DNA from: the human T2T-CHM13v2.0 reference genome, Homo sapiens
Assembly (NCBI RefSeq): GCF_009914755.1
Contig: NC_060940.1
Direction: 5' to 3' (one strand)
DNA length: 64,000 nt
This document shows positions 8,771 through 28,109 of the stretch, in pieces. Within the stretch, counting starts at the first letter, position 1. Every line of letters starts with the position of its first letter. The position numbers and the translations under genes are program-made. Below the pieces are notes generated by a model that saw only the letters and a list, made by a program, of their open reading frames with translations, searched no databases and had not been told where the DNA came from.

Positions 8771-9382
8771 TATCGCACCCCCTGTGACATTAGGAGTAAT
8801 ATCTCCCTAGAATATTATGAATAATATCACAGGGTGTCCACATATGATGTACATCTCTGTGACATTAGAAGTAATGTCTCCCTTGGATATTATGAATGTC
8901 ACAGAGTGTCCACACACGGTGTACACCTCCTGTGACATTAGGAGTAATATCTCACTAGGATATTAGGAATAATATCACAGGGTGTACACACATGGTGTAA
9001 ACCCCCTGTGACATTAGCAGTGATATCTCCCTAGGATATTAGGAATAATATCACAGGGTGTACACACGGTGTACACTTTCTGTGACATTAAGAGTAATAT
9101 CTCCCTAGGATATTCCGAATAATATCACAGGGCATACATCCCCTGTGAAGTTAGAAGTAATATCCCCCTAGAATACTACAAGTGATATCACAGTGTGTAC
9201 ACCTCCTGTGATATTAGGATTAATATCCTTCTAGAATATTATGCATAATATCACAAGGTGTATACCCAGTGTGACATTAGGAGTAATATCTCCATAGGAT
9301 ATTATGAAATATATCACAGGGTGTACACCCACTGTGACATTAGGAGTAATATCCCCCTTAATATATTAAAAATGATATCACA

Positions 9383-9682
9383 GGCCGGGCGTGGTGGCTC
9401 ATGCTTGTAATCCCAGCACTTTGGGAGGCTAAGCGGGTGGATCATGAGGTCAGGAGATTGATACCATCCTGGCTAACACGGTAAAACCCCGTCTCTACTA
9501 AAAATACAAAAAAATTAGCCAGGCATGGTGGTGGGTGCCTGTAATCCCTGCTACTCGGGAGGCTGAGGCAGGAGAATGGTGTGAACCTGGGAGGTGGAAC
9601 TTGCAGTGAGCCGAGATTGTGCCACTGCACCCCAGCCTGGGTAACAGAGCGAGATGCCATCTCAAAATAAAAAATAAATAAT
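9383..9682 (+). mobile_element. AluY inserted in the satellite
   Basis: AluY diagnostics; TSD AAT(G/A)ATATCACA. Confidence 0.92.
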
Positions 9683-11936
9683 AATAATATCACAGGATGT
9701 ACATCCATTGTGAAATCAGGAGTAACATCCCCCTAAGATATTATGAATAATATCACATGGTGTACTCCCACTGTGACAAGAGAAGTAATATTACCCTAGG
9801 ATATTATGAATACTATCACAAGAAGTACACACGTGGTATACACCCACTGTGACATTAGAAGTAACATCCCCCTAGGGCATGATGAATAATATCACAAGGT
9901 GTACACACATGGTGTACAACCACTGTGACATTAGGGGTAACATTTCTCTAGAATATGATCAATAATATCACAGAGTGTACATCCTGTGAGTAACATCCTA
10001 GGAGTAAAATCCCCAGAGGATATTAGGAATAATATCACAGGGAATGTACACACATGGTGTACACCCACTGTGACATTAGGTGTAACATCTTCCAAGGATA
10101 AGACGAATAATATCACAGGGTGTACATACATGGTGGACACCCCCTGTGACATTAGGAACACATCTCTTTAGAATATCAGGAATAATACCACAGGGTGTAC
10201 ATCCCCTGTGACATCCCCCTAAGAATTAACATTCCCCTAAGATATTAAGAATAATATCACAGGTTTACATGCCCTGTGACATTAGGAGTAACATCACCCT
10301 AGGAGATTACAAATAATATCACAGGGTGTACACCCTCTGTAATATTAGGATTAAAATTCCCCTACAATATTACGAATAATATCACAGGGTATACACCCCC
10401 TGTGATATTAGGAGTAACATCACCCTAAAATATTACAAATAATATAACAGGGTATACACACCCTGTGACATTAGGAGTAACATCCCCCTGGGATATTAAG
10501 AATAATATCAAAGGGTGTACACCCCCTGTGACATTAGGAGTAACATATCCCTAAAATGTTACTGATAGTATCAAAAAGGGGTACATAACCTGTGACATTA
10601 GAAATAACATCCTCCTAGGATATTACAAATAATATCACAGTAGATATTACTGCTAACGTCACAGTGGGTGACCACACATGGTGCGCACCCACTGTGATAT
10701 TAGGAGAAATATCTCCCCAGAATATAATGCATAATGTCCCAGAGTGTACACACACGATGCAAACCCAGTGTGAAATTAGGAGTACTATCTCCCTGGGGAA
10801 TTACGGGTAATGTCCTAGGGTGTACACACAGGCTGTACACCCACTGTGATATTAGGAGTAATATCTCCCCAGGTTATTATAAATAACTTCCCAGGGTGTA
10901 CACACATGGTGTACACCACTGTAATATTAGCAGTAATATCCCCCAAAAATATTACAAATAATGTCCTGGGGTGTACACACATGGTGTACACCCACTCTGA
11001 TATTAAAAGTTATATTTTTCTGGGTATCACAAATAATGTCCCAGCATGTACACATGGTATACATCCACTGGGATATTAAGAGTAATATCTCCCCAGGATA
11101 TTACAAATAATATCTCAGGATGTACACATAGGATGTTCATTCAATGTGATATTAGAAGTAATATCTCCCTAGTGTATTACAAATAATGTCCTAGGGTGTA
11201 CACACACAGTGTACACTCACTATGATATTAATGATAATATCTCCCCATGATATTACAAATAATGTCCCAGAGTGCACACACACAGTGTACACCCACTGTG
11301 ATATTTGGAGTAATATCTCCTTAGGATATTACAAATAATGTCCCAGGGTGTACACATGGCATATACCCAAGGTGATATTAAGAGTAATGTCTCCCTATGA
11401 TATTACAAATAATTTCCCAGAGTGTACACCCACTGTGATATTAGAAGAAATATCTCTTCAGGATATTTCAAATAATATCCCAGTGATGTTAAGAGCAGTA
11501 TCCTTCCAGGATATTACTAATAATATCCCAGTGTGTGCACACATGGTGTACACTCACTGTAATATTAAAAATAATATCTCCTCAGAATATTACAAATACT
11601 ATTTCAGAGTTTACACTCATGTTGTACACCCACTGTGATATTAGGAGTAATATCTTCCCTGAATATTGTGAATTCCAGGGTGTACACCCACTGTGATATT
11701 AGGAGTAACATTTCCCCAAGATATTACGAATACTATACCAGGGTGAACACACATGGTGTACACCTACTATGTTATTAGATGTAATATCTCCCCAAGCTAT
11801 TACAAATACTATCTCAGGGTGAACACACATCCTGCACACCCACAGTGATATTAGGAGCAATATCTGCTCTGGATATTACAAATAATATCCCAAACAGTAC
11901 ACACATGGTGTACACCCACTGTCATATTAAGATTAA

Positions 11937-25300: not shown

Positions 25301-26215
25301 GCACACACATGGTATACACCCACTGTGATATTTGGAGTAATATCTTTGGAGGATATTATGAGTTATATCGCAGAGTGTACACACATGGTGTACACCCATT
25401 GTGATATTAAAAGAAATATCTCCCAAGGATATTACAAATAATATCACAGAGTGTACACACACTGTGTACACTTACTTTTATATTTAGAGTAATATCTCCA
25501 CAGGATATCATGAATAATATCACAGAGCATACACACATGGTGTACACCCACTGTGATATTAAAAGTAATATCTCCTGAGGATATTATGAATAATATCACA
25601 GGGTATACACTCATGGTGATATTAGAAGTAATATATCACCATATATTATGAATACTATGAATAATATCACAGGGTGTACATCCACTGAGAAATTAGGAGT
25701 AATATCTCCCTAGGATATTACAAATATTATCACAGGGTGTGCACCCACTGTGATATTTGGAGTAATATCTTTGGAGGATATTATGAATTATATTGCAGAG
25801 TGTACATACATGGTGTACACACACTGTGCTAGTAGGAGTAATATCTCCCTAGGATATTACAAATAATATCACAGGGTGTACACACATGATGTACATTTAC
25901 TGTGATATTAGGAGTAATATCTCCCTAGGATTTTACTCCTAATATCACAGGACGTACACACATGGTGTACACCAACTGTGATATTAGCAGTAATATCTCT
26001 CTCAGATATTATGAATAATATCACGGTGAGTGTACACAGGATATTACGAATTTCCTCAGGATATTTCCTCAGGACATTACGAATAAAATCACAAGGTGTA
26101 CACACATAGTGTACAACCCCTGTGTTATTAGGAGAGTAATATCTCCCCAGAATATTACAAATAATATTTCTGGGTGTACATATGGTATGTACATCCACTG
26201 TGATATTAGGAGAAT
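22321..26215. repeat. Satellite block type B, copy 2
   Basis: Same unit as 8771-16900, with TAAGATAC/TAAGATAT variants at 22400-24250. Confidence 0.9.
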
Positions 26216-28109
26216 AGTATTTCCCTGCGATATGGGGAGTAACATCATGCTTTTCCTTGCTGGCTATGCTGGCTATTAGGGACTACATCGCAGACACCCC
26301 TTGCGAAATGGGGAGTAACATTATCCTTTTTTCACCTGGATACTATGGATAATATCGCTAAGGGTGTACATCCCCTACGATATGTAGAGTAATATCATCC
26401 ACTCACCCCCTGGATATTATGAACAATATCACGGGGGGGTGTTCACCTACTGCAATATGGGGAATAACATAATCTTCTCCCTTCCTGGATTTTACGAACA
26501 ATATCACAGGGGGGTGTACATCCCCTGCGATATCGGGAGTAATATTATCCTCTTTCTCCCTTGATATTATGAAAAATAACACAGGAAAGTGTACACCCTC
26601 TGCGGTATGGGGAGTAATATCATTCTCTTCACCTCTGGATATTATGAAATATATCACAGCAAGGTGTATACTTTCTGCGATATTGGGTGTAATATCATCC
26701 TCTCCCTCCCTGGATGTTATGAACAATAGCACAGGGGGGTGTATATCCCCTGCAGTATGGGGAGTAATATCATCCTCTTCACCCCTGGATATTATGAAAT
26801 ATGTCACAAGGGGGTGTATACATTCTGCAATACATTCTTCCACCCTGGATATTACGGACAATATTGCAGGGGACTGTACACCTACTGCGATATGGAGAGT
26901 AACATCATCCTCTTCCTTCCTGAATATTACGGACAATATTGCGAGGGGGGTACAACCCCTATGGTGTGAGTAGCAACTCTTATCACTCCCCGTAATATTA
27001 AGGGTTTTTCACATGGGTGAATATTCGTGTTGGCTAGATTTTATTGTACAGTTAATAATAGTATGTGTTAGTTGATTAAGAAATTTTGATACATGCTTAT
27101 ATGTATGTGGGCTAACTTTGATAACCCTGGATATTATGAACCATATCACATGAAAGTGTACACCCTGCGCTATGGTAAGAAATATCATCCCCTCCCCCTC
27201 TGGATATTAAAAACCATATCTCAAGACGTTGTACATCCCCGGCAATATGGGGAGTAATATTATCATCTCTCATCCTGGATACTACAAACATCACAAGAAG
27301 GTATACGCCCCCTGCTATATGGGCAGTAATATCACCCTCTCCCTCCCTGAATACTACGAACCATATCACAGGGGGTGTACATCCCGTGCGATATAAGGAG
27401 TAATATTACACTCTTTCCTCCTGGATATTACAAACCATATCATGGGGAATTGTACAAGCCCTCCATAGGGAAAGTAATATCACCCTATCCCCCTTAGGAT
27501 ATTACAAACCATATCACAGGGGGATTTACACCCCCATCGATATGGGGAGTAATATCACCCTCTCTTCCCCTGGATATTACGAACCATATCACACTCCCCG
27601 CGATATATGGAGTAATATCACCCCCCCTTCCCCCCTGTATATTACAAACCACATTGCAGTGGCGTCAACACGCCCCGCGATATGGGGAGTAATATCACCG
27701 CCCTCTCCCCCCTCAGATATTAGCAACCACATCGCAGAGGGGTGAACACTTTCTGCGAACTGGGGAGTAATATCACCCCCCTCTCCCTCCCTGGATATTT
27801 CAAACCATATCACACCCCCCACGATGTAGACAGTAATATCACCCTCCTCTCCCCACCCCTGGATGTTATGAAACATATCACACCCCCTGCGATATGGGGA
27901 GTAATATCATCCCCCCTCCCCCCTGGATATTACAAACCATATCGTGGGGCGATGATCACCCTCCTGCGATACGGGGAGTAATATCACTCCACTTCCCCCT
28001 CTGGATATTACGAACCATATTGTGGGTAGGTGAACACCTCCCCCGATATGAGGAGTAATATCACCCCCTCTTCCCTCCTGGATATTGCAAACCATATCGT
28101 GGAGTAATA
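26216..28109. repeat. Satellite block type C, copy 2 (contains a D-loop fragment at 26992-27120)
   Basis: Type C units collinear with 16901-18440. Confidence 0.9.
26992..27120 (-). pseudogene. Second copy of the NUMT D-loop terminus
   Basis: Direct repeat of 28117-28249 with ~5 substitutions and one 4-bp indel. Confidence 0.9.

What the first reader, a model, noticed from the sequence alone, without database searches (positions are those of the whole stretch)
8771..28109. Each satellite unit is a double hairpin whose stem bases co-vary between sub-families
Seen: units consist of AATATC...GATATT inverted repeats twice over. A long stem surrounds the palindrome GTGTACAC and a short one reads GTAATATC..GATATTAC. 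Outer stem bases change in a compensatory way: TAATATC/GATATTA in type B (e.g. 22961-22994), CAATATC/GATATTG in C (19283-19320), CCATATC/GATATGG in a C variant (17818-17853, 27509-27546). G-runs are mirrored by C-runs. Caveat: some sub-blocks break the stem (ACTATCCCAG at ~13000-15500). Inference: symmetry is maintained by intra-strand template correction or by selection for cruciform or hairpin-RNA structure.
Basis: partly seen in the sequence, partly recalled or inferred. Interest (0 to 1): 0.7.

Follow-up and report, generated by a model that had tools for sequence, protein, structure and literature searches.

The report
Human satellite hairpins symmetrised in founders
This 21-kb repeat is an array of the known primate satellite SATR whose unit is two back-to-back hairpins; the hairpin arms changed in matching pairs between sub-families, likely because one arm was copied onto the other in the few founder units that later multiplied, whereas the individual copies in the genome today lose their pairing almost like unprotected DNA.

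Summary
The array (about 7,090-28,110, wider than reported) is a mosaic of 52-76-bp double-hairpin units of the dispersed SATR family: published SATR1 primers match the type C units. The two outer long-stem pairs co-vary between sub-families exactly as reported, but the signal vanishes once sub-family membership is held fixed: 62 compensated double changes against about 56 expected in 695 units, beside 1,886 one-sided ones. So nothing maintains the stems in today's copies. 6 of 14 strand-inversion junctions in other SATR loci sit in mirror register on the long-hairpin axis. Best reading: arm-to-arm template switching in amplifying founder lineages (0.55); selection for hairpins as an amplification signal is not excluded. 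Function as cruciform or RNA in present copies is not supported. I found no description of this unit anatomy in print.

The parts
7090..8770 (+).
   Evidence: related arrays elsewhere
8793..10650 (+). Mixed 63/76-bp A/B units; right arm GACATTA (13 of 20 units) not compensated (2 of 20)
10703..16900 (+). Type A 76-bp units (63-bp unit plus 13-bp core duplication); locally fixed, uncompensated left-arm variants
16922..17750 (+). Type C' 75-bp units, mismatched intermediate CA|GG between C and D
17750..18440 (+). Type D units (CCATATC/GATATGG), paralogous to 27.1-27.8 kb
18500..22335 (+). Type C 75-bp units (CAATATC/GATATTG) = SATR1
22336..24344 (+). Type B 63-bp units (TAATATC/GATATTA); probably SATR2 (inferred)
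24345..26200 (+). Mixed A/B units; 25.2-27.8 kb is an old duplicate of 15.9-18.4 kb (75-84% identical)
26236..26990 (+). Second C' block
26993..27120 (+). About 130-bp copy of the flanking mitochondrial-insert sequence (28,117-28,249, 93% identical) inserted into the array; absent from the paralogous block
27125..28110 (+). Type D units up to the junction with the mitochondrial insert
9385..9692 (+). Alu-like insert interrupting a unit (family name recalled)
11937..12232 (+). Alu-like insert
20757..21094 (+). Alu-like insert

Best explanation
The array is SATR satellite whose double-hairpin unit shows matched changes on both arms between sub-families but not between individual copies, likely because replication occasionally switched template from one arm to the other in the few founder units that went on to amplify. 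Shown: unit anatomy, family identity of type C, compensation between consensus sequences, none among copies, inversion junctions in mirror register. Inferred: (1) a point change broke a pair in a founder and was amplified as a mismatch (C' and the G.G pair of C are such intermediates); (2) a later switch within the hairpin, or a short conversion between palindromic arms of neighbouring units, copied one arm onto the other, sometimes extending the stem; (3) that unit seeded the next sub-family; (4) once an array went dormant, copying became rare against point mutation and the stems decayed. Why copying is concentrated in founders is not shown; most likely amplification itself exposes single strands.
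For: Consensus pair tables: long pairs 1, 2, 4, 8 and short pairs 4, 6 compensated from B to V1 (6 of 19, permutation P 0.001; V2 7 of 19, P 0.008; D 2 of 19, P 0.02); long pair 9 compensated between Z' and Z. The two rival registers across the 4-base spacers fall to 1-2 of 7 pairs in V while the hairpin registers keep 6-7 of 7. V has a 3-base insertion, CAG, that is the reverse complement of the 3 loop bases beside the right arm, making a 10-bp stem: the stem-extension signature described for template switching in PMC8794818. Intermediates are non-wobble: A.G in C' (two window blocks; 14 of 42 units in L037). 6 of 14 strand-inversion junctions lie in mirror register on the long-hairpin axis, chance about 0.05 each, P about 2e-5. 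No unit-level excess of compensation.
Against: The compensated pairs are few events (about 6-9; several V changes may be one event), V1 rests on 6 units of one locus, and the short-stem pair of Z depends on an ambiguous alignment. Many fixed changes stayed uncompensated: long pairs 3, 5, 10, short pair 2, all four local variants of the window's A/B blocks. Less than about 1% of stem mutations in copies are compensated, so a purely mutational process needs a founder-specific boost that I did not demonstrate. The 14 junctions are those visible in fetched loci, some may share descent, and none lies in this window. Stem A/T sites are slightly less diverged than loop sites (7.4% vs 8.6%, p 0.009), which could be weak constraint, reversion or an effect of anchoring the alignment on stems.
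Confidence: 0.55

Rival explanations
1. Selfish selection on founders: only units with two intact hairpins could be amplified or dispersed (hairpin-primed or rolling replication, or recognition by a mobile-element protein), so ordinary point mutations were filtered for pairing.
For: Both hairpins persist across sub-families from about 23% GC (Z) to very GC-rich V; compensation is confined to founders; arrays are dispersed on many chromosomes with the same consensus.
Against: Mismatched founders amplified well (C', A blocks, V2). The templated 3-base stem extension is easier by copying than by point mutation. No terminal repeats, target duplications or enzyme were looked for or found. Not exclusive of the best explanation.
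Confidence: 0.25
2. Host function: present copies are kept paired for cruciform DNA or hairpin RNA.
For: 6 of 7 window units tested fold better than shuffles (z -2.1 to -6.0); one miRNA annotation, hsa-mir-3683, is listed as SATR1-derived (PMC3059204); small stem-loop divergence gap.
Against: No unit-level compensation; 10 of 230 units with both stems intact; only 5 perfect stems of 13 bp or more in 21 kb; no consistent strand bias for wobble-compatible changes; no Rfam match in the array; a permanganate/S1 study found inverted-repeat motifs depleted of single-strand signal genome-wide and names no SATR enrichment in its main text (its Fig. S17 not seen).
Confidence: 0.07
3. Chance plus shared ancestry: two coincident changes in founders, multiplied by amplification.
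For: All pooled covariation in the window is ancestry; from the window alone only two compensated events exist (P 0.02).
Against: Relatives add at least four more compensated pairs and a templated extension (P 0.001); junctions in register.
Confidence: 0.08
4. The symmetry reflects a protein-binding dyad (GATATTA-N4-TAATATC) rather than hairpins.
For: Type B reads as a perfect dyad across both 4-base spacers; ZNF141 and ZBTB24 ChIP reads are reported on SATR.
Against: Every compensated change breaks the spacer dyads and keeps the hairpin registers; in V the dyads retain 1-2 of 7 pairs.
Confidence: 0.05

Closest known systems
SATR1 / SATR2 / SATR1v primate interstitial satellites
   Same: Type C matches published SATR1 primers; dispersed mixed arrays; GC-rich variant interleaved with retroviral fragments; inverted sub-arrays (bioRxiv 10.1101/2025.08.04.668424, PMC2700803, PMC3606032).
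   Different: The papers I saw do not describe the monomer as a double hairpin, nor compensated stems, nor the Z-B-C-C'-D-V series. Assigning A/B to SATR2 and V to SATR1v is my inference.
Template-switch mutations creating and repairing hairpins (PMC8794818; rRNA and microRNA loci)
   Same: Two-step compensation through a visible mismatch, multi-base stem extension.
   Different: Here in a non-coding tandem satellite, with no evidence of purifying selection on copies; signal confined to founders of amplification waves.
Palindromic AT-rich repeats (PATRRs; PMC1851657, listing and start of abstract only)
   Same: Human inverted repeats linked to rearrangement.
   Different: PATRRs are single palindromes of about 190-600 bp; SATR stems are 7-18 bp, imperfect and tandemly repeated, so extrusion is far less likely (inference).
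Flip-flop terminal hairpins of parvoviruses and poxviruses (recalled, not tested)
   Same: Strand switch at a hairpin axis symmetrises arms.
   Different: No replicon, nicking site or enzyme known here; resemblance of mechanism only.

Membership tests
SATR1 | Sequence match to the SATR1 consensus | tested here: met
   Primers designed on the SATR1 consensus (PMC3606032 supplement) give 18 and 24 window matches at up to 2 mismatches, 0 by chance, 15 of 18 and 22 of 24 in C/C'/D blocks; the left primer is the exact reverse complement of the type C consensus. The full Dfam/Repbase consensus was not available.
SATR1 | Dispersed tandem arrays at many interstitial loci, often mixed with related SATR types | tested here: met
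   485, 82, 65 and 64 genome matches for four block queries (lower bounds); C and A/B units adjacent in many loci.
SATR1 | GC content near 44% (macaque value) | tested here: met
   C/D blocks 0.43-0.46.
SATR2 | Sequence match of A/B units to the SATR2 consensus | not testable with these tools
   No SATR2 sequence found in papers or supplements seen; inferred from co-occurrence with SATR1 in duplicons.
SATR1v | GC-rich SATR1 variant in mixed arrays | tested here: inconclusive
   Type V is GC-rich, homologous and adjoins C units; no published sequence to compare.
Template-switch-maintained hairpin | Multi-base change making one arm an exact reverse complement of the other, including former loop bases | tested here: met
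   10-bp short stem of V with inserted CAG; one clear case.
Template-switch-maintained hairpin | Mismatch state on one branch, fix on a later one | tested here: met
   C-C'-D at long pair 2, C/D-V at long pair 8, V1-V2 at short pair 0; tree supports 68-100 on a short alignment, unrooted.
Template-switch-maintained hairpin | Excess of compensated changes among individual copies | tested here: not met
   40 vs 34.6 +- 4.9 (long) and 22 vs 21.1 +- 4.1 (short) in 695 units.
Structured non-coding RNA | Covariation beyond phylogeny with G.U tolerance on one strand; known family | tested here: not met
Cruciform-forming repeat | Extrusion or nuclease cleavage in supercoiled DNA or cells | not testable with these tools
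   Only folding of single strands and stem-length counts.

The most novel reading that the evidence does not exclude
SATR is a self-propagating repeat whose double hairpin is the working part: amplification and dispersal run through a single-stranded, hairpin-primed (rolling-hairpin-like) intermediate that both needs and repairs the stems, which would explain founder-only compensation over a span from AT-rich to GC-rich sub-families, inversions on the hairpin axis, and the presence of SATR at primate rearrangement breakpoints and in the megabase expansions of macaques and gibbons.
Probability: 0.2. Interest if true: 0.8.

Novelty: new variant of a known kind. Interest (0 to 1): 0.5.

Why it matters
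How small interstitial satellites amplify and jump is open. SATR marks breakpoints of the 8p23.1 duplicon (PMC5088589, passages), makes up about 8 Mb of the macaque genome (bioRxiv 10.1101/2025.08.04.668424) and is the commonest satellite in one gibbon (PMC3606032), yet its unit has not, in what I could search, been described structurally. A satellite whose founders keep two hairpins while its copies lose them separates the two phases of satellite life and gives a testable handle on the amplification step. It is also a clean warning: strong pooled covariation in a repeat family can be pure founder effect and says nothing about function of the copies.

Tried and rejected
Unit-level covariation in four pairing registers and two controls: none above the within-block null; 4 of 18 pairs reached p < 0.05 in the window before duplicates were removed and 2 of 18 in 860 units, not reproduced after stricter removal. 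G-run/C-run length coupling: none. Strand bias for wobble pairs: none consistent. Rfam: only three tRNAs of the mitochondrial insert. Origin of the satellite from the mitochondrial control region: considered because the array abuts it, rejected since the same consensus occurs at many other loci and only a 130-bp piece lies inside the array; other loci were not checked for mitochondrial inserts. Strand inversions inside this window: none. First tiling of other loci counted both strands because the unit is nearly palindromic; redone with a strand vote. The L041 unit was cut in the wrong phase and its z (-1.0) is not informative. Paper searches by motif found no SATR sequence. Earlier scan findings were not available. 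Only 45 loci outside the window of 0.75-3.6 kb were examined, a small part of the family.
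Full report
1. Observation. The four cited examples are in the sequence. Tiling the window after excising four inserts gave 230 units (89 A of 76 bp, 59 B of 63 bp, 64 C, 18 D), all on the + strand; some stretches between units were not tiled. The unit is: 4-base spacer, short hairpin (7-bp arms, loop 7 bases in A/B and 16 in C/D), 4-base spacer, long hairpin (7 + 4 bp arms around a G-run, GTGTACAC, C-run core). The array starts earlier than reported: 28 AT-rich units of 52/65 bp at 7,122-8,760 have the same layout (type Z). 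Perfect stems of 8 bp or more number 120 in 21 kb against 22 in 21 kb of flank; 6 of 7 window units fold better than shuffles.

2. Identity. Four block queries found 485, 82, 65 and 64 matches on many chromosomes (lower bounds). Primers designed on the SATR1 consensus (PMC3606032, supplement row) match the window 18 and 24 times with none expected by chance, mostly in C/C'/D blocks. Type C is therefore SATR1. A/B as SATR2 and the GC-rich type V as SATR1v are inferences from co-occurrence and GC content (PMC2700803 and PMC5088589, passages; macaque preprint, parts 1-4 of 5). V units alternate with retroviral pol fragments (Pfam RT_RNaseH_2, E 8e-9, 1 of 2 frames scanned), as the published SATR-ERV composites would suggest. 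Consensus sequences of B, C and D are nearly the same at all loci examined, and copies are 13.5-15% diverged from their block consensus, V 6.5-9%. With a recalled neutral rate near 2e-9 per year the older types would date to early primates; this is rough.

3. Covariation among copies. Pooled mutual information at long-stem pairs 1 and 2 is high but is matched by shuffles within blocks. Against my reading, 4 of 18 pairs in the window and 2 of 18 in 860 units gave p < 0.05 in that call. After dropping gappy units and near-duplicates (747 of 1,199 kept, 695 in 34 blocks of 6 or more), compensated double changes were 40 against 34.6 +- 4.9 in the long stem and 22 against 21.1 +- 4.1 in the short stem, beside 1,886 one-sided changes in 11,211 cells; rival registers and controls were at or below null. 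In 32 distinct V2 units: 98 one-sided, 5 double, 1 compensated. A/T sites diverged 7.4% in stems and 8.6% in loops and spacers (p 0.009); anchoring on stems may explain this. Arm lengths do not co-vary. Only 10 of 230 units keep both 7-bp stems. Locally fixed variants in the window are uncompensated: 19 of 35 against 0 of 35, 25 of 35 against 0, 11 of 21 against 0, 13 of 20 against 2.

4. Covariation among founders. A pattern search from the D consensus found GC-rich relatives (160 matches, 0 for the reversed control). Their consensus keeps both hairpins with new letters: short stem TAAGAGC/GCTCTTA, long-stem pairs 4 and 8 changed on both sides. From B to V1, 6 of 19 pairs are compensated (permutation P 0.001); to V2 7 of 19 (P 0.008); to D 2 of 19 (P 0.02). 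These P values show non-randomness, not the number of events. Z' to Z adds long pair 9, and Z's short stem a possible further pair. Uncompensated at the tips: long pairs 3, 5, 10, short pair 2. The dyads across the spacers, perfect in B, keep 1-2 of 7 pairs in V, so hairpin pairing, not a spacer-centred binding site, is what is conserved. An unrooted tree of 10 consensus sequences (the two A consensuses left out) orders B, C, C', D, D2, V with supports 68-100.

5. Mechanism. Three observations point to copying between arms. V has an inserted CAG that complements the three loop bases beside the right arm, giving a 10-bp stem; stem extension is a predicted mark of template switching (PMC8794818, part 1 of 6 read). 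Mismatched intermediates were themselves amplified and are not wobble pairs: A.G in C' (two window blocks that are duplicates, and 14 of 42 units in L037), G.G in C and V1. And in other SATR loci 6 of 14 strand-inversion junctions fall in mirror register on the long-hairpin axis, chance 0.044-0.057 each, P about 2e-5; two more use the 7-base arm homology, the rest are out of register. Such a junction makes both arms from one side. The window has one more templated event: about 130 bases of the adjoining mitochondrial insert were copied into the array at 26,993-27,120 after the 15.9-18.4 / 25.2-27.8 kb duplication (93% against 75-84% identity). Shown: anatomy, founder-level compensation, absence in copies, junction register. 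Inferred: that template switching or arm conversion did it (0.55) and that it is tied to amplification. Selection on founders (0.25) predicts much the same pattern and may act together with it. Host function in present copies (0.07), chance (0.08) and a protein dyad (0.05) fit poorly.

6. Known and new. The family is catalogued. Searches for SATR1/SATR2 (31 papers, 27 listed), SATR-1/SATR/mir-3683, SATR1 + hairpin (3 papers, 2 listed), satellite DNA + monomer + dyad symmetry + compensatory (0), template switch + hairpin + compensatory + satellite and unit motifs gave no description of the double hairpin or of compensation; the macaque preprint has no occurrence of hairpin, cruciform or secondary structure. 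Dfam/Repbase notes, subscription journals, the macaque supplements and Fig. S17 of the single-strand footprinting preprint (passages only) were not visible and may bear on this. Other passages seen: hsa-mir-3683 from SATR1, ZNF141 and ZBTB24 reads on SATR, a SATR1 variant in CHM13.

7. Verdict. Interest 0.5.

Noticed in passing
window 28,111-35,222: Old mitochondrial insert (annotated CYB to ATP6 pseudogenes; three tRNAs by Rfam) abuts the array; the stretch 28,111-28,490 is probably control region (from position and recalled gene order). The junction shares a short AATATT homology with the satellite arm.
   Followed up: partly
window 26,993-27,120: Templated copy of 130 bases of that insert inside the satellite, 93% identical, replacing about 12 bases relative to the paralogous block; could date a late rearrangement of the array.
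   Followed up: partly
window 15,893-18,412 vs 25,237-27,811: Old internal duplication spanning A, C' and D blocks, about 9.3 kb apart.
   Followed up: partly
G000:C5:136.316-136.331 Mb (L021, L025): Array with the same Z, A/B, D order and orientation as this window; its Z block is 80% identical to ours, the closest found.
   Followed up: no
L039, L042: GC-rich V units alternate with repeated retroviral pol fragments, forming a higher-order satellite-ERV composite.
   Followed up: partly
L009 (G000:C10:17.32 Mb): Five C-like units with a divergent consensus (20% spread), perhaps another sub-family; also a Z-to-B inversion junction.
   Followed up: no
window 35,257-35,407: Isolated 150-base match to type Z (74%) just beyond the far end of the mitochondrial insert, suggesting the insert landed inside or beside satellite sequence.
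   Followed up: no
window 50,007-50,228: 22-bp GC-rich minisatellite, 10 copies, 92% matches, about 3.5 kb upstream of NUBP1.
   Followed up: no
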